A DNA stretch of 64,000 nucleotides from Escherichia phage phiP4 (PP993145.1), one strand, 5' to 3'; counted from the first letter of the stretch, positions 1,055-10,253 are shown. Notes: generated by a model not told the origin, from the sequence alone. Made by a program: numbers and translations.

Positions 1055-1290
1055 AAAGCGTTATTGTTGTTATCCTTGCAATGGCTGGCGGTTTTATCGC
1101 CACCTTATTTAAGAATGATCCCACTTCGTTGGGTATCTTTATGCTTTTATCGGGCTATCTGATCGGGAGGTTGTCAAATGATAGCGCAAATTAAAACGGC
1201 TTTTCGTTTTTGGGGCGTCCTGCCTTCAATTGGTTTTATTCTGATAATCATTAGTCAGCTAATGATTATCGTTGGCGTTATCTGGGAGCT

Positions 1291-1641
1291 ATGCAAATGA
1301 TCATTTACGAGGGCAATCGCTTTGTTGCTAATTGCCGCCCGGCATTGTTAGCAAACTATTTAAACCAGCTTTCACCAGCTTATAAGGGCGTTATTAATAT
1401 TTACGAGGGCAAGGCGCATTATAAAATCAATGCGGTCGTTGCCCGTGAACTAGCGTTTCAATTTTTAACCTTTGCATCTTGCGACGTTCAGGTTATGGGT
1501 GAGGCGTTAATTGCAGAAAATGAAGACGATTTTATTAATATTTTCCGTAAGGTATGCACCGAGCGCCTGATAATCAAAGGCGCATATATTCAATCCACGG
1601 CTGATAGTATTGAAACAGCGTTTCGAAAGGTGGCGCAATGA
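1291..1641 (+). CDS. hypothetical protein (116 aa)
   Basis: ORF track. Confidence 0.45.
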   Translation: MQMIIYEGNRFVANCRPALLANYLNQLSPAYKGVINIYEGKAHYKINAVVARELAFQFLTFASCDVQVMGEALIAENEDDFINIFRKVCTERLIIKGAYIQSTADSIETAFRKVAQ

Positions 1642-2017
1642 AACGATGGTTTAATCACTGGTACAAGCGGTTTTTAGTACGCCGTCGCAAGTCTAGGCAT
1701 CAAGATGAGTGGCGGGAGTGGGCAAAGCGTAACGGTTGCCCACTAATATAATAATCACGGGGCGCAACTATCAGGGAGTGCCCCCAATTTTCAAATGATA
1801 ATCATTCTCATTTGACCGCGCCCGCGATGGTTAGCCTGCTAATGGTTCGGGTGTTACGTGTCGCCTTGTGTGATCGTTAGCTCGCTAACTAATTTTCAAG
1901 CCTCCTCCAATTTTGCCCTTGTTTTAGTATCCCCACCAAAATTAAACGCGTTAGAATGCGTTTGAGAGCGTTTTAACGCTATATTAGAATTATTCGCTGC
2001 GTAGGAATACTGTATAT

Positions 2018-2117
2018 TTATCCAGTAGGATAAGCTGTGGATAAGTCTGTTAATAACGCCTCAAAATGGCTAGGGTTTTGTCAAGTCAAATCGTGCTGTT
2101 AATAAGTCTGTGGATAA
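2018..2117. promoter_or_regulatory. DnaA-box cluster: two perfect TGTGGATAA boxes (2036..2044, 2109..2117) plus a near-box TTATCCAGT (2018..2026)
   Basis: Exact 9-mer matches to the DnaA box consensus TTATCCACA (reverse complement) read directly. Confidence 0.6.
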
Positions 2118-2149
2118 CTTAAATAACAGTGTTTCTCACTTCCGTTCTT

Positions 2150-2350
2150 AAATGAGAATCATTATCATTTGTATTTCACTATCTAACTAATAATCATTCC
2201 ACTATCTAACTAATAATCATTCCACTTTCTAAATGAGAATCATTCCGCTTTTTAAATGAGAATCATTTCACTTTTTAAATGAGATTGATTCTCATTTCAC
2301 TTTCTAAATGCGAATTATTATCATTCTCATTCCGCTTTTTAAATGAGAAT
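2150..2350. repeat. cluster of palindromic iterons (AAATGAGAATCATT-type units, about 5 direct copies, plus tandem 24-bp units 2176..2223)
   Basis: Repeated units read directly; a related palindrome also at 1791..1813. Confidence 0.6.
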
Positions 2351-2400
2351 GATTCTTATTATCATTCGTATTTAGCGCAGAGCAATTGCTCTGCGCTTTT

Positions 2401-3000
2401 GTGCAAATCCGACATTGCTCCACGGGTGTTACGTGCGGGCGTGTATGTGCGAATCCGACAATTTTTGGTAGTGTGCAAATCCGACCCGAAAAATTTTTAT
2501 AGTGTGCAAATCCGACAATGAATTTTCCTAAAAACTCCAGCAATCCGATGCTGCGCATCAATCCTGTGGAATTAGCTAGAGTATGTGCAAATCCGACATG
2601 GGTTTATTTGTGCGAATCCGACAAGATTTTTGTGACTTCGATTGGAGGGTGTGTGATTGTGTGGGTTTGGGGAGAAGTTGAGAGAGCGAGAGAAAATAAG
2701 AGGAGAAGCTAGAGGGGCAGCAGTGGTGGCGTGCAACGCCTGATTTGCTGCGTTTTTGGGGAGAGTTGAAAAGATTTGGGTTAATTTGAGATTAGTGGAG
2801 ATAAAGTAAAATTTTATTAGCAAAATGGGGCAAAATAGCTTGACAAGTGAAAATTTCTGTGGCTCTAAAAACTCAGGCAATCACGGGCCTTCGGCCCGAA
2901 ATAATGCTGCCATTTTCAGGAGATTATATGTTCCTAAAAACTTAGGCAATTGTGCAAATCCGACCATAAATTTCTAGAAACACAATGTGCAAATCCGACA
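2401..3000 (+). repeat. eight same-orientation copies of the 14-bp motif GTGC(A/G)AATCCGACA at about 2401, 2448, 2474, 2504, 2585, 2600, 2953, 2987
   Basis: Motif copies read directly; irregular spacing of 15..350 bp; no ORF support. Confidence 0.6.
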
Positions 3001-3473
3001 GTAATTTCTGGAAATGTGTTTTCAAAAAATGTCTCCTAGAAATAACCGCCCTCCCCATAACCGCCCTGTATTAAACCGCCTAGTATATGTTCCTAGAAAC
3101 TTGGGAGAACCGCCCACTAGAAGCGTGAGATCTCGTGAGTATTTCGTGAGAACTCTGGAGTTTCTAGGAAAGTGTTGTGCCATCCTAGCAGATGAGCGGC
3201 AACCGGTGTATCATCTTGAATGTAAATTATGTGGTCAAAAGTTTTACCTTTAATTTAAGTATAAGATCCCCCAAGATTGGAAGAGATGCTCCACCCCTGG
3301 GATACGAATTGCGTGAGATGGTACAAAACTTCTTAAGATTTCCCTAGTCCTTCGACAAGCTACGGGGGAAATAGAAGTTTCCCATCCACCATCCGTATCC
3401 GGGTGGATCTCTTTATTCTATGTTATTTCATAGAGTTATTATAACATGCAGAAATCATAACGTCAAGTAGAGT

Positions 3474-4364
3474 TTATTCATCGAACATGAGATTTCCTTT
3501 CATCCCCATCTCCGCATACTCCATGAGTTCTTTGATGGATCTCACGGGGTAATCTACTTTACTAAAGTTATCATAGATCTTACATGAACTCTCATACAAC
3601 TCGTTAGGTATCTGCAATTTGTTATCTGTTAGCTTCTCATAACGTGCAGAAGAATTTGTACCGTCAAACAGAACTGCGATAACTGCGGCGATTTGTTTAG
3701 TAAGATCATCTGCTCCTAGAATTATTCTATTAATAGCAATCGTTACTTCATGCTTAGGTTTAGCAGGTGGAAGGATAGGTTTGAGATCCTTAGGTAAAGG
3801 TTCTGTTCCTAGGAATCCTTCTTTTGTGCGGAACCAATAATTATCTAGATCAGATATCGTCTTAGACTTATTCCAAATAGTGAAGCAGGGTTTATTTCCT
3901 TCACGATCTCTGTATTCACGAATTGGAAGGTAATGATCAGGGAATGAATTGAGTGCATCATGCATCGGTGAGCCTGTCTTTTTGAATGACAAACCATACA
4001 ACTCATTATAATTCATAACTTCATCTTCGTAAACATGGAAATCTTTATATGCTGGAAGATTAAACCATTCCTGAAGTGAATGAACTGCAAAACGTTGTGC
4101 CCAAGCATGCATCACTAGAACTCTGTATTCTTTTACTTCATCTTTTGGAGAAGTACCTTTAGCTGTTCTAGCTGAACGAATACAGAACATCTCAACAACA
4201 CGTTTCTCATTTAAAGAGAGTTCAGAATAACAACGTTCATGGCAACCTTCTAGCATTTCTAGAAGTTCACGTAGTTTCTCTACATCGACCGGTGGAAAAG
4301 GTCTTTCTTCAACTGCGAATTTACCAGTTACACCTTTTGGTTTTCTATTACTATAAAATCCCAT
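3474..4364 (-). CDS. hypothetical protein (296 aa)
   Basis: ORF track; first gene of the minus-strand block. Confidence 0.55.
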   Translation of the reverse strand: MGFYSNRKPKGVTGKFAVEERPFPPVDVEKLRELLEMLEGCHERCYSELSLNEKRVVEMFCIRSARTAKGTSPKDEVKEYRVLVMHAWAQRFAVHSLQEWFNLPAYKDFHVYEDEVMNYNELYGLSFKKTGSPMHDALNSFPDHYLPIREYRDREGNKPCFTIWNKSKTISDLDNYWFRTKEGFLGTEPLPKDLKPILPPAKPKHEVTIAINRIILGADDLTKQIAAVIAVLFDGTNSSARYEKLTDNKLQIPNELYESSCKIYDNFSKVDYPVRSIKELMEYAEMGMKGNLMFDE

Positions 4365-8856: not shown

Positions 8857-9378
8857 TTAGACATTTAACATCCAGCTAGTTTTATCATGTGAGGTATACT
8901 TACCACTCATGATGTCTTCCAGACGTACTGGTGATTTTGCATATTCGACACAAACGTTAATATAACGAGGATCCCCCATTAGCTCAAAGTGAGTATGCCC
9001 ATGTAAATTCTTCTTACCTCTCAGCTCCCCATGGTGTATTGGAGCATGGGAAAGCCAGAAGTTTTTATACTTAACTAGTGATTGTACGTTATCTACAACC
9101 CCTATTAAGTCTTTGAAAGATAATCCTTCTCGTTCTAAGTCGTGGTTTCCCAAAACTAACGTAGTTCTAACATTGCCAAAGAGTTTTTCGAACTTTTCCA
9201 AACCATTTCTAGATACAAATGCGTCTCCTAAAATATAGAATACTGTACGCTTATCTTTCACGGATGTAATAGTATCCATAATAAATTCGTCATGCTCTTC
9301 CATAGTAGAGAAGATTGGTCTGAATTTAGTAATATTTGCATGCCCCAAGTGGAGATCACTCCAAAAACAAACTTTCAT
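8857..9378 (-). CDS. calcineurin-like metallophosphoesterase (173 aa)
   Basis: Motifs GDAF..., GNHD, GHTH typical of the metallophosphatase fold. Confidence 0.65.
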   Translation of the reverse strand: MKVCFWSDLHLGHANITKFRPIFSTMEEHDEFIMDTITSVKDKRTVFYILGDAFVSRNGLEKFEKLFGNVRTTLVLGNHDLEREGLSFKDLIGVVDNVQSLVKYKNFWLSHAPIHHGELRGKKNLHGHTHFELMGDPRYINVCVEYAKSPVRLEDIMSGKYTSHDKTSWMLNV

Positions 9379-10253
9379 TAAAGAACCCTCTGTACACCAC
9401 AGCTATCTTCCCGGAGTGTAGTAAATGTGGTGATTTTGCCCGTTTCATCGTTAACTTGCGCAACCGTCAACTGCCCGTTGAAAACACCGCCAGTATCAAG
9501 ATAAACACGGTTTTTATAGAGAAGTGGATAAGGAACCCCAGTATGTCCGTGAAACACGAAATCTACCCCTTTAACTTCTGGTACTTCTACCGTGTATTTT
9601 TCTTTAAATCCTGCGTAACGCTGGAAATATGGGTGTTCTTCTCCATTTTTGGACAAGTGGAAGCCTATTTCTTGGATTACATCTCGATCCCATAAATATG
9701 GCTCAACATGGTATCCAGGATGGTCATGTGGGTCTTCCTTAGCTGCTTCTACTTGCGCAATAAGATTATCCCATACTGGGGTTTCTACCTCATTACCACA
9801 TTCTTTGTATGTAAAAGGTACACCACCGTGAACAACACCAAATTTCTTACCACGATGTCTAACAGTTAGGAATATTGGCATTTTTTCAGCCATATCTTCG
9901 GCAATATTTTTAATGGTGTCTGCATCCAGCTCATTCATAGCCCACATACCACCGTTATACATCCAATTAGCCCAATCTCCCACAATCATAAATTGATCAT
10001 GATTACCACGGACACTGATAAAACGTGGATTATACAGGAATTTGGCTAAAACTTGTAGGTTTTGTGTGCCTCGGTCTATTAAGTCTCCGACACATACTAC
10101 GCAATCTTTTTTGCTATTATACCCAGCTAATTTCAACGCATCTTCTAGCAAATCATTGCATCCATGAATATCACCAACGAAAAACAAGTTGGCCTCATCC
10201 GGCACTACTAGAGTTTTATGTACATTAAATTCTTTTTTCATAATTATTCCCAA
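9378..10253 (-). CDS. serine/threonine protein phosphatase (PPP family, 291 aa)
   Basis: Motifs GDIHG, GDLIDRG, RGNHD match the PPP signature GDxHG / GDxxDRG / GNHE. Confidence 0.7.
   Translation of the reverse strand: MGIIMKKEFNVHKTLVVPDEANLFFVGDIHGCNDLLEDALKLAGYNSKKDCVVCVGDLIDRGTQNLQVLAKFLYNPRFISVRGNHDQFMIVGDWANWMYNGGMWAMNELDADTIKNIAEDMAEKMPIFLTVRHRGKKFGVVHGGVPFTYKECGNEVETPVWDNLIAQVEAAKEDPHDHPGYHVEPYLWDRDVIQEIGFHLSKNGEEHPYFQRYAGFKEKYTVEVPEVKGVDFVFHGHTGVPYPLLYKNRVYLDTGGVFNGQLTVAQVNDETGKITTFTTLREDSCGVQRVL

What the first reader, a model, noticed from the sequence alone, without database searches (positions are those of the whole stretch)
2150..2350. Palindromic AATGA-N3-TCATT iteron cluster
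About five direct units of type ttctaaatgagaatcattYcRcttttt, each with an internal palindrome, plus two tandem 24-bp units (2176..2223) and a related palindrome at 1791..1813. The dyad symmetry suggests sites for a dimeric DNA-binding protein.
Basis: seen in the sequence. Interest (0 to 1): 0.6.

Follow-up and report, generated by a model that had tools for sequence, protein, structure and literature searches.

The report
Fur-box-like repeats in T5 injection-stop region
The repeats are real, but they are not replication iterons: they are the known palindromic repeat block of the "injection stop signal" of a T5-like phage, and their sequence matches the operators that bacteria use for the iron regulator Fur, which offers a testable lead on how T5 pauses DNA entry.

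Summary
Nine tandem units of 23, 29 or 35 bp (2142-2372), plus an outlying copy (1791-1815), carry AATGA-N3-TCATT-type dyads; exact copies number 4 against 0.13 expected. The window is a T5-like phage. The block lies in the untranslated gap between pre-early and early genes. It is orthologous to T5's annotated injection stop signal (iss, Davison's Repeat Region 3), whose repeats are already described but have no assigned function. It is not a replication origin.

New here: the units are (NNNAAT)2-N-(ATTNNN)2-3 hexamer arrays that match Fur operators. Their scores (13-19 bits) equal those of the E. coli fepD-entS and fepB-entC operators. There are 7 hits in 600 bp against at most 2 anywhere else in the window. 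One exact 21-mer recurs in more than 120 bacterial contigs, including tonB/chuX, Nramp, TonB-dependent-receptor and LbtU loci. Fur-grade arrays persist in four enterobacterial phage lineages but not in the two Vibrio lineages whose arrays were scored. A near-consensus LexA box and paired DnaA boxes lie next to the array.

Best reading (about 0.45): host Fur binds the last-entering FST DNA. The main rival is a lineage-specific phage protein. The feature is already known; the Fur and LexA reading appears new and can be tested directly.

The parts
1759..1790 (+). Terminator-like GC hairpin plus T-run after the last pre-early ORF (which ends at 1641)
   Evidence: Read from the sequence. T5 has an annotated rho-independent terminator at the equivalent place, 9275-9296. 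This is an inference; the scan tool did not call it because the loop is longer than 8 nt.
1791..1815 (.). Outlying unit U0: 25-bp dyad TCAAAT-GATAAT-C-ATTCTC-ATTTGA. It is an inverted copy of unit U1.
   Evidence: I3, I20. Fur PWM 18.5 bits and 15/19 to the consensus. Present in the window and in the IMG/VR relative, absent from T5 and BF23.
2008..2027 (.). LexA/SOS-box-like palindrome TACTGTATATTTATCCAGTA
   Evidence: It is the only site in 64 kb within 3 mismatches of TACTGTATATATATACAGTA (2 mismatches; expected 0.00). CTGT-N8-ACAG lies in the iss module of the eight other lineages/phages read, but not in the short gap of Vibrio phage 70E34-1b.
2036..2056 (-). DnaA box pair 1: TGTGGATAA-gtc-TGTTAATAA (part of Davison's IRD'-spacer-IRC' inverted-repeat module)
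   Evidence: The pairing with 3-bp separation matches Davison's description.
2097..2117 (-). DnaA box pair 2: TGTTAATAA-gtc-TGTGGATAA (part of Davison's IRD'-spacer-IRC' inverted-repeat module)
   Evidence: The only two perfect TTATCCACA boxes in the 64-kb window are at 2036 and 2109.
2142..2372 (.). The finding: tandem array of nine units built from NNNAAT/ATTNNN hexamers. Composite Fur-grade units: 2148-2172, 2275-2299, 2304-2332, 2339-2370. Simple units: 2229-2248, 2252-2271. Degenerate units: 2173-2218.
   Evidence: Fur PWM 16.9, 13.5, 13.6 and 19.3 bits. Shuffle control P<=0.001. Orthologous to T5 at about 9540-9730.
2374..2401 (.). Perfect 24-bp GC-rich palindrome AGCGCAGAGCAATTGCTCTGCGCT plus TTTT. 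It is a terminator-like hairpin. By homology to T5 it is also the site of the major 7.9% single-strand interruption, predicted between 2397 and 2398 on the minus strand.
   Evidence: (I19). The T5 nick is annotated at 9748/9749, directly after CTGCGC. There is a compensatory A/T versus G/C change in the stem relative to four relatives.
2400..2999 (+). Eight TGTGCRAATCCGAC repeats (T5 'DRD'), all in one orientation
   Evidence: There are no other copies in the window. The same repeat is found in the Klebsiella, Pectobacterium and Vibrio (JSF10, GRLPWR) phages, and in one diverged copy in the Proteus phage.

Best explanation
The block is the central palindromic-repeat part of the injection stop signal (iss, 'Repeat Region 3') of a T5-like phage. 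It is the last DNA to enter the cell before first-step transfer pauses.

Its units are arrays of GATAAT-type hexamers in forward-forward-N-reverse-reverse order, which is the architecture of Fur operators. I propose the following. When this segment emerges into the cytoplasm, pre-existing host Fur-Fe2+ dimers bind and oligomerise along it. LexA binds the near-consensus SOS box and DnaA binds the paired DnaA boxes immediately to the left. Together they build a host nucleoprotein complex on the entry-proximal end of the FST DNA. That complex takes part in holding or marking the DNA during the pause, until A1 and A2 restart transfer.

What is shown: the identity of the region, and sequence equivalence to authentic Fur operators that is conserved in four enterobacterial phage lineages.

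What is inferred: that Fur actually binds, that binding is the selected function, and how it would affect transfer.

My estimates: identity as iss about 0.97; Fur occupancy in an iron-replete cell about 0.7; Fur binding as the selected function about 0.45.
For: Identity
- The window is 90-93% identical to Tequintavirus genomes at 8.3-10.3 kb of the left terminal repeat.
- T5 annotates iss at 9140-10149. Unit-by-unit orthology is seen.
- Davison places the shear point (~9618) inside these repeats and says their function is unknown.

Fur equivalence
- The PWM was built from 10 literature iron boxes, leaving out the aerobactin box. It ranks the block's sites first in 64 kb: 19.3, 18.5 and 16.9 bits, and 7 of the top 9.
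- The same PWM picks out the E. coli fepD-entS (17.2), fepB-entC (16.1 and 18.4) and fepA-fes (10.3) promoters.
- There are 7 hits of >=9 bits in 600 bp, against at most 2 elsewhere and a mean of 0.27.
- The symmetrised unit consensus is 17/19 identical to the Fur core.
- Unit lengths differ by whole hexamers: 23, 29, 35 bp.
- The exact 21-mer at 2150-2170 occurs in more than 120 bacterial contigs. My own calculation gives ~0.3 expected.
- Of the 9 contigs examined, 4 place it at iron or metal uptake loci: the tonB/chuX-hutX divergent promoter, upstream of an Nramp gene, between a TonB-dependent receptor gene and the next gene, and upstream of an LbtU siderophore porin.

Conservation
- Arrays of T5, BF23, phiR2-01, an IMG/VR relative, and the Klebsiella, Proteus and Pectobacterium phages all beat 1000 shuffles (P<=0.006; 3-7 hits >=9 bits).

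Context
- Complete injection in FhuA proteoliposomes implies that a host factor is needed for the stop.
- The stop needs no new protein synthesis.
- Near-consensus LexA and DnaA sites lie next to the array.
- No demerecvirus encodes a Fur homologue.
- A2's putative recognition segment is invariant even though the arrays differ between lineages.
Against: - The two Vibrio lineages scored (JSF10, GRLPWR) keep the LexA-like box, the DnaA boxes, the GCGC element and the GTGCAAAnCCGA repeats. Their middle array, however, is a different, non-Fur-like sequence. From my own knowledge, Vibrio Fur recognises the same box. So a Fur role cannot be universal in the family, and the pattern resembles co-evolution with a lineage-specific reader.
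- The phage consensus prefers G over T at +/-4 (65% versus 23%), and its outer hexamer is TTAAAT, not GATAAT. Many units (GCGAAT, ACGAAT) depart from NATWAT.
- The simple 23-bp units score below 9 bits.
- The sites are not at a promoter, which is where Fur normally acts.
- A protein bound to DNA already inside the cell does not obviously stop further entry, so the mechanistic link to the pause is weak.
- The related phages share ancestry, so their conservation is not independent evidence.
- 5 of the 9 bacterial contexts sampled were uninformative.
- There is no binding data.
Confidence: 0.45

Rival explanations
1. The array is read by a phage-encoded DNA-binding protein: A2, another pre-early protein, or a virion protein. 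That protein's specificity happens to overlap the Fur box, and its binding mediates the stop or the A1/A2-dependent restart.
For: - The middle array is lineage-specific, whereas the flanking modules are conserved family-wide. That is typical of a co-evolving protein and site pair.
- The consensus departs systematically from Fur at +/-4 and in the outer hexamer.
- A2 is an essential DNA-binding protein required for second-step transfer, and its target is unknown.
Against: - A2's HTH-like segment S-x-x-S-V-R-x-K-L is invariant across phages whose arrays differ. That fits the invariant GTGCAAATCCGA repeats better.
- A T5 mutant with only A1, A2, hdi and 009 is viable, so few pre-early readers remain.
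- The stop needs no phage protein synthesis.
- No phage Fur homologue exists, and A2 has no Pfam or PDB relative.
- A chance match of this quality to one host operator family is unlikely.
Confidence: 0.25
2. The palindromes act as DNA structure. Hairpins or cruciforms mechanically stall DNA passage through the tail or channel, without a sequence-specific protein.
For: - As single-stranded DNA, the block folds with z = -7 relative to shuffles.
- Nested inverted repeats reach up to 41 nt (I1).
- There are apparent compensatory arm changes: ACGAAT..ATTCGT in T5 against GCGAAT..ATTCGC in BF23 and the Klebsiella phage.
Against: - The arms are short and AT-rich. The simple units have only a 5-bp stem.
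- The AAT/ATT cores are invariant across deep lineages, which base pairing does not require.
- Any hexamer array of this type is automatically self-complementary.
- The whole genome is injected in vitro into FhuA proteoliposomes, so the DNA alone does not stop transfer.
Confidence: 0.08
3. One of the palindromes is the cleavage site of an A1/A2 restriction-like nuclease that frees the blocked FST DNA (Davison's model).
For: A1 is a predicted metallophosphatase-type nuclease. Palindromes lie to the right of the DnaA boxes. An FST-sized fragment was seen in unblended infections.
Against: Davison himself says the model assigns no role to the many repeats. A cleavage site does not need nine tandem copies or hexamer periodicity. 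No cleavage data exist.
Confidence: 0.07
4. The Fur, LexA and DnaA boxes are operators of a promoter inside the gap that drives a short non-coding transcript, so that host status regulates a phage RNA.
For: Weak sigma-70-like sites lie at 1962-1990 (10/12), 2296-2324 and 2338-2365. The LexA-like box lies just downstream of the first of these. A strong hairpin plus T-run at 2374-2401 could terminate such a transcript.
Against: The -35 element is not conserved in T5 or BF23. No Rfam family reaches its threshold. No promoter is annotated or mapped here in T5 or BF23.
Confidence: 0.05
5. The repeats are replication-origin iterons flanked by DnaA boxes.
For: Tandem ~23-bp direct repeats lie next to DnaA boxes.
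Against: There is no initiator gene nearby. T5 origins map near the genome centre, and replication genes are not yet in the cell during FST. The module is syntenic with the injection stop site across the family.
Confidence: 0.02

Closest known systems
Bacteriophage T5 injection stop signal (iss) / Repeat Region 3 (DRC, DRE and palE-palJ repeats; NC_005859 9140-10149)
   Same: - Same position: the right end of the left terminal repeat, between pre-early and early genes.
- Same module order: LexA-like palindrome, paired DnaA boxes, palindromic array, GCGC nick hairpin, TGTGCAAATCCGAC repeats.
- The units align one to one.
   Different: - The number and order of units differ through whole-unit gains and losses.
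- This phage has two degenerate 23-bp units.
- It also has an extra upstream copy (1791-1815), with a partial duplication of the segment that follows the hairpin (1848-1872 resembles 2423-2447). T5 and BF23 lack both.
Fur operators of Gram-negative bacteria (19-bp iron box GATAATGATAATCATTATC; aerobactin box GATAATGAGAATCATTATT; ent-fep promoters)
   Same: - The hexamer F-F-N-R(-R) architecture is the same.
- 15-16 of 19 positions match the consensus.
- PWM scores equal those of authentic operators.
- 15 nt are identical to the aerobactin box.
- The exact 21-mer is used at bacterial iron-uptake promoters.
   Different: - The block is not at a promoter; it lies in a convergent intergenic gap.
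- It is far longer and denser than any operator in the ent-fep cluster.
- G is preferred at +/-4, and the outer hexamer is TTAAAT.
- Binding has not been tested.
Plasmid and phage replication iterons next to DnaA boxes (for example P1 oriR or pSC101-type origins; from my own knowledge)
   Same: Tandem direct repeats of about two helical turns lie next to DnaA boxes.
   Different: There is no Rep gene. The block is not at a mapped origin. Each unit has internal dyad symmetry. The module tracks the injection stop site.

Membership tests
T5-type injection stop signal region (Repeat Region 3) | Lies in the large untranslated gap at the right end of the left terminal repeat, between rightward pre-early and leftward early genes | tested here: met
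   The gap runs from 1641 to 3474 between + and - strand ORFs. Matches fall at 8.3-10.3 kb in genomes that start at the repeat, and twice in records that hold both repeats. T5 annotation.
T5-type injection stop signal region (Repeat Region 3) | [quoted passage not shown] | tested here: met
   A five-phage alignment has 77% mean column identity. DnaA boxes occur in pairs 3 bp apart, followed by the array, the CTGCGC hairpin and the DRD repeats.
T5-type injection stop signal region (Repeat Region 3) | Acts in cis to halt DNA transfer at about 8% of the genome | not testable with these tools
   This needs blender-shearing experiments. It is known only for T5 and BF23.
Fur operator | At least three contiguous GATAAT-like hexamers (F-F-N-R), matching the 19-bp consensus as well as footprinted sites do | tested here: met
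   15-16/19 matches and 13.5-19.3 bits, against 10.3-18.4 bits for the E. coli ent-fep operators. P<=0.001 against shuffles.
Fur operator | The same sequence is used at Fur-regulon promoters in bacteria | tested here: met
   The exact 21-mer occurs in more than 120 contigs. Contexts include tonB/chuX, Nramp, a TonB-dependent receptor and an LbtU porin. 5 of the 9 loci sampled were uninformative.
Fur operator | Overlaps a promoter whose transcription it represses | tested here: not met
   The gap is convergent and intergenic. Only weak, non-conserved promoter-like sites are present.
Fur operator | Bound by Fur-Fe2+/Mn2+ in vitro or in vivo | not testable with these tools
   This needs EMSA, footprinting, a Fur titration assay or ChIP.
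Replication-origin iterons | An adjacent gene for the cognate initiator (Rep) protein | tested here: not met
   The flanking ORFs are small pre-early and early proteins with no Rep-like Pfam hit.
Replication-origin iterons | Coincides with a mapped origin of replication | tested here: not met
   According to the literature, T5 origins map near the centre of the genome. This was not tested for this phage itself.

The most novel reading that the evidence does not exclude
T5-like phages of enterobacteria build their injection stop signal from consensus-grade sites for three pre-existing host proteins, lying side by side: LexA, DnaA and Fur. The long-sought host factor for the pause in DNA entry would then be a host nucleoprotein complex assembled on the entering DNA. 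The pause could be coupled to host iron status, DNA-damage status and replication status.
Probability: 0.3. Interest if true: 0.85.

Novelty: already known. Interest (0 to 1): 0.55.

Why it matters
How T5 stops DNA transfer after 8% of its genome has entered has been unexplained since the 1960s. The iss repeats are described as conserved but with no assigned role. In vitro data imply that an unidentified host factor is needed.

If the repeats are Fur operators next to LexA and DnaA sites, specific host proteins are named as candidates. They can be tested with standard assays: EMSA, Fur titration, ChIP, and blender experiments in fur, lexA and dnaA hosts. A positive result would also be a rare case of a virulent phage using host global-regulator sites for something other than transcription control. 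If Fur does not bind, the block remains an ordinary, already-catalogued part of the T5 iss.

Tried and rejected
- Rfam scan of 1400-3700: nothing came near a gathering score.
- Promoter and terminator scan: only weak, non-conserved promoter-like sites in the array.
- A phage-encoded Fur: none found in any demerecvirus.
- A2 against Pfam and PDB: no hit. The window's pre-early ORFs gave only DUF7566.
- The search for related loci with the flanking early protein returned a single close relative, so it gave no breadth.
- Known Fur-regulated sRNAs next to the bacterial copies of the 21-mer: none found.
- A first sample of six bacterial contexts, using ORFs of >=70 aa, gave five uninformative loci. 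The sixth, Legionella, was resolved only later with NCBIfam.
- Arm covariation as evidence for hairpins: only one clear compensated change in the array (ACG..CGT against GCG..CGC). Hexamer arrays are self-complementary anyway, so I did not pursue it.
- A Fur-like palindrome at 1237-1282 turned out to be a by-product of Ile codons in a transmembrane micro-ORF.
- Vibrio phage 70E34-1b has only a short gap with no recognisable module, and I set it aside.
- Technical: the sandbox exported only the first new locus of each batch. Several arrays were therefore pasted by hand from get_sequence output.
- I did not predict the A2 structure. A2 is not in the window, and its fold would not decide between the rivals.

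Full report
**1. Observation**

The sequence at 2142-2372 is a head-to-tail array of nine related units.
- Start-to-start spacings are 23 bp (five times), then 35 and 29 bp, so unit lengths differ by whole hexamers.
- The two units at 2173-2218 are identical 23-mers, not 24-mers. They are degenerate copies.
- An outlying 25-bp dyad lies at 1791-1815. It is 95% complementary to 2150-2171.
- The exact pattern AATGA-N3-TCATT occurs four times in the 64-kb window, all within 1794-2267. Chance expectation is 0.13.

**2. Where it is**

The window is a T5-like phage. Region 1700-3100 is 90-93.5% identical to many Salmonella and Escherichia Tequintavirus genomes. The matches fall at about 8.3-10.3 kb in records that start at the left terminal repeat, and twice in records that hold both repeats.

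The block lies in a 1.8-kb untranslated gap (1641-3474). Plus-strand pre-early ORFs lie to its left and minus-strand early ORFs to its right.

The T5 RefSeq record annotates 'injection stop signal (iss)' at 9140-10149. It also annotates the major single-strand interruption at 9748/9749. T5 carries the same units at about 9540-9730, and a five-phage alignment shows unit-by-unit orthology.

Davison's comparison of 25 T5-like phages calls this 'Repeat Region 3' and lists its repeats (DRE, DRC, palE-palJ, DRD).
- It places the FST shear point (~9618) within these repeats.
- It stresses paired DnaA boxes.
- It says the function of the other repeats is 'impossible to guess' and that his model gives them no role.
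- It notes that T5 replication origins map near the genome centre.

The feature itself is therefore already known. The replication-iteron reading is not supported.

**3. Anatomy in the window**

| Coordinates | Feature |
|---|---|
| 1759-1790 | Terminator-like hairpin |
| 1791-1815 | Outlying unit U0 |
| 2008-2027 | LexA-like palindrome |
| 2036-2056, 2097-2117 | DnaA box pairs, 3 bp apart (the only perfect TTATCCACA boxes in 64 kb) |
| 2142-2372 | The array |
| 2374-2397 (+TTTT) | Perfect 24-bp GC palindrome, homologous to the T5 nick site |
| 2400-2999 | Eight TGTGCRAATCCGAC repeats, one orientation, found nowhere else in the window |

**4. What the units are**

Read in hexamers, the units follow (NNNAAT)2-N-(ATTNNN)2-3, for example TCAAAT-GATAAT-C-ATTCTC-ATTTGA. 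This is the architecture of the Fur box, GATAAT-GATAAT-C-ATTATC. I tested the resemblance in five ways.

(a) *Consensus matches.* Four of the five 19-mers in the window that match the consensus at >=15/19 lie in 1791-2363.

(b) *PWM ranking and calibration.* I built a PWM from ten iron boxes listed in PMC10665472. I left out the aerobactin box, which shares 15 nt with the phage unit.
- The PWM ranks sites in the block first in the window: 19.3, 18.5 and 16.9 bits, and 7 of the top 9.
- On 25 kb of the E. coli ent-fep cluster, the same PWM picks out the three known Fur-controlled divergent promoters: fepD-entS 17.2 bits, fepB-entC 16.1 and 18.4, fepA-fes 10.3. The 18.4-bit site is one of the training boxes.
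- The phage sites therefore score like authentic operators.

(c) *Clustering.* There are seven hits of >=9 bits within 600 bp. The maximum anywhere else in the window is two, and the mean is 0.27.

(d) *The phage's own motif.* I symmetrised 26 distinct AAT-N-ATT-centred 25-mers from eight phages.
- The result is TTAAATGAGAAT-S-ATTCTCATTTAA. Its central 19 positions are 17/19 identical to the Fur core.
- The only systematic difference is G (65%) rather than T (23%) at +/-4. The aerobactin box also has G there.

- By my own calculation, about 0.3 copies are expected for equal base frequencies. At most about 10 would be expected even if every genome were 65% A+T.
- I examined nine loci. In Oxalobacter the 21-mer lies in the divergent tonB / chuX-hutX promoter. 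In Francisella it lies directly upstream of an Nramp transporter gene. In Paraburkholderia it lies between a TonB-dependent receptor gene and the next gene. In Legionella it lies 33 bp upstream of an LbtU-family siderophore porin gene.
- The other five loci were uninformative.

Bacteria thus use this precise sequence where Fur operators are expected.

No paper in the searchable library links T5-like phages with Fur. Older subscription literature could not be searched.

**5. Relatives**

The module order is conserved across Demerecviridae: a TGTATA..TATACA palindrome, paired DnaA boxes, a middle array, CTGCGC, then GTGCAAAnCCGA repeats. I saw it in the following phages:

| Phage | Genus or subfamily |
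|---|---|
| BF23 | Tequintavirus |
| phiR2-01 | Epseptimavirus |
| Klebsiella phage | Sugarlandvirus |
| Proteus phage 1 | Novosibvirus (A1 only 42% identical to T5's) |
| Pectobacterium phage DU_PP_V | Mccorquodalevirinae |
| Vibrio phage JSF10 | Jesfedecavirus |
| Vibrio phage GRLPWR | Thalassavirus |

The middle array is Fur-like in every enterobacterial lineage. Maximum scores are 12.4-21.1 bits, with 3-7 hits of >=9 bits, and P<=0.006 against 1000 dinucleotide shuffles. Proteus phage 1 has three copies of GTAATGATAATCA.

The two Vibrio arrays are different sequences with no Fur hit at all: ACGGATAGAAGGCTAG-type in JSF10, and CACTAATATAGGGAT plus GTAGGTCATGCTAAT in GRLPWR.

BF23 uses BtuB rather than FhuA. 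Its array is as Fur-like as T5's, so the motif does not track the receptor.

**6. Who reads the array**

For a phage protein:
- The array is lineage-specific.
- It prefers G at +/-4.
- A2 is an essential DNA-binding protein needed for second-step transfer.

Against a phage protein:
- A2 has no Pfam or PDB relative.
- Its HTH-like segment S..SVR.KL is invariant even in phages whose arrays differ. That fits the invariant GTGCAAATCCGA repeats better.
- A T5 with only A1, A2, hdi and 009 is viable.
- The stop needs no new protein synthesis, and complete injection occurs in FhuA proteoliposomes, so a pre-existing host factor is implied.
- No demerecvirus encodes a Fur homologue.

A purely structural role is weak.
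- The block folds well as single-stranded DNA (z = -7), but any such hexamer array is self-complementary.
- The simple units have only 5-bp arms.
- The invariant AAT/ATT cores are not explained by base pairing.

**7. A neighbouring clue**

The palindrome next to the DnaA boxes is a near-consensus LexA/SOS box.
- The window has TACTGTATATTTATCCAGTA (2 mismatches). It is the only site in 64 kb within 3 mismatches, with 0.00 expected.
- T5 has TACTGTATAAATATACAGTA.
- CTGT-N8-ACAG with an all-A/T spacer lies in the iss module of every lineage listed in section 5, including those two Vibrio phages.
- Davison does not mention LexA, and the library holds no paper on it.

So about 400 bp carry consensus-grade sites for LexA, DnaA and, in enterobacterial phages, Fur.

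**8. Most likely mechanism**

As the last part of the FST DNA emerges into the cell, pre-existing Fur-Fe2+ binds and oligomerises on the hexamer array. LexA and DnaA bind alongside. The resulting host nucleoprotein complex on the entry-proximal end of the FST DNA takes part in the pause or in marking the DNA for the A1/A2 restart.

- Shown: the identity of the region, its equivalence to Fur operators, and its conservation.
- Inferred: binding, selection for binding, and the link to the pause.
- Weak points: the Vibrio exceptions, the absence of a promoter, and the fact that a protein bound to DNA already inside the cell does not obviously stop further entry.

My estimates are 0.97 for the identity, about 0.7 for Fur occupancy in iron-replete cells, and 0.45 for Fur binding being the selected function. 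The main rival, a lineage-specific phage reader, gets 0.25.

**9. Verdict**

This is a real feature that is already known: the repeat block of the T5-type iss. It is not a replication origin. The Fur reading, and the LexA reading next to it, appear to be new. They turn a long-standing open question into a set of simple experiments, which is why I give it moderate interest despite the known identity.

Noticed in passing
window 2008-2027; T5 L001 3409-3428 and 211-232 (T5 Repeat Region 2): A near-consensus LexA/SOS box (CTGT-N8-ACAG with an all-A/T spacer) lies directly left of the first DnaA-box pair. It is present in eight relatives read, including two Vibrio phages, but not in the short gap of Vibrio phage 70E34-1b. 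It is not mentioned in Davison's preprint and is not found in the literature library.
   Followed up: partly
window 2400-2999; L012 12721-13344; L013 12176-12688; L008 about 9310-9450: The TGTGCRAATCCGAC (DRD) repeats are the most widely conserved repeat of the module: Escherichia, Klebsiella, Pectobacterium and two Vibrio lineages, always in one orientation. A2's HTH-like segment S..SVR.KL is invariant across the same phages. A2 binding to the DRD repeats is a natural hypothesis.
   Followed up: partly
window 2374-2401: The 24-bp GC palindrome at the predicted major nick site carries a compensatory double change relative to T5, BF23, phiR2-01 and the IMG/VR relative: GCAGAGC..GCTCTGC against GCAGGGC..GCCCTGC. 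The symmetry or hairpin is therefore maintained.
   Followed up: partly
window 1791-1890 versus 2339-2450: [quoted passage not shown] The duplication is present in the window and in the IMG/VR relative but absent from T5 and BF23.
   Followed up: partly
window 1237-1282: A Fur-like inverted repeat, GATAATCATTAG-tcag-CTAATGATTATC (10.7-14.8 bits), lies inside a 40-aa transmembrane micro-ORF. It is explained by Ile codons encoding 'ILIIISQLMIIV'.
   Followed up: yes
T5 L003 228-252 (dmp coding region); also L004 14817-14829, L005 15100-15112, L006 14865-14877: A strong Fur-PWM hit (18.4 and 20.6 bits) lies inside the dmp gene, near the very left end of the genome, which enters the cell first. 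Its GATAATCATTATC core is conserved in BF23, phiR2-01 and the Klebsiella phage. It may simply reflect protein conservation.
   Followed up: partly
window 3438-3466, minus strand: The best sigma-70-like site of the gap (TTGACG-17-TATAAT with an extended TG; 11/12) lies just downstream of the last early gene. It points leftward into the repeat region.
   Followed up: no
L008 about 9480-9650 (Vibrio phage JSF10); L013 12700-12790 (Vibrio phage GRLPWR): The slot that holds the Fur-like array in enterobacterial phages is filled in the Vibrio phages by unrelated tandem or palindromic repeats. JSF10 has ACGGATAGAAGGCTAG-type repeats. GRLPWR has ATAGGGATCAC-TAATATA-GTGATCCCTAT and GTAGGTCATGCTAAT x2. 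Their readers are unknown.
   Followed up: partly
L026 6711-6731 and 7911-7931; also L035 and L075: In three Legionella species the exact 21-mer occurs twice, about 1.2 kb apart. In L. moravica the two copies bracket an LbtU-family siderophore porin gene.
   Followed up: no
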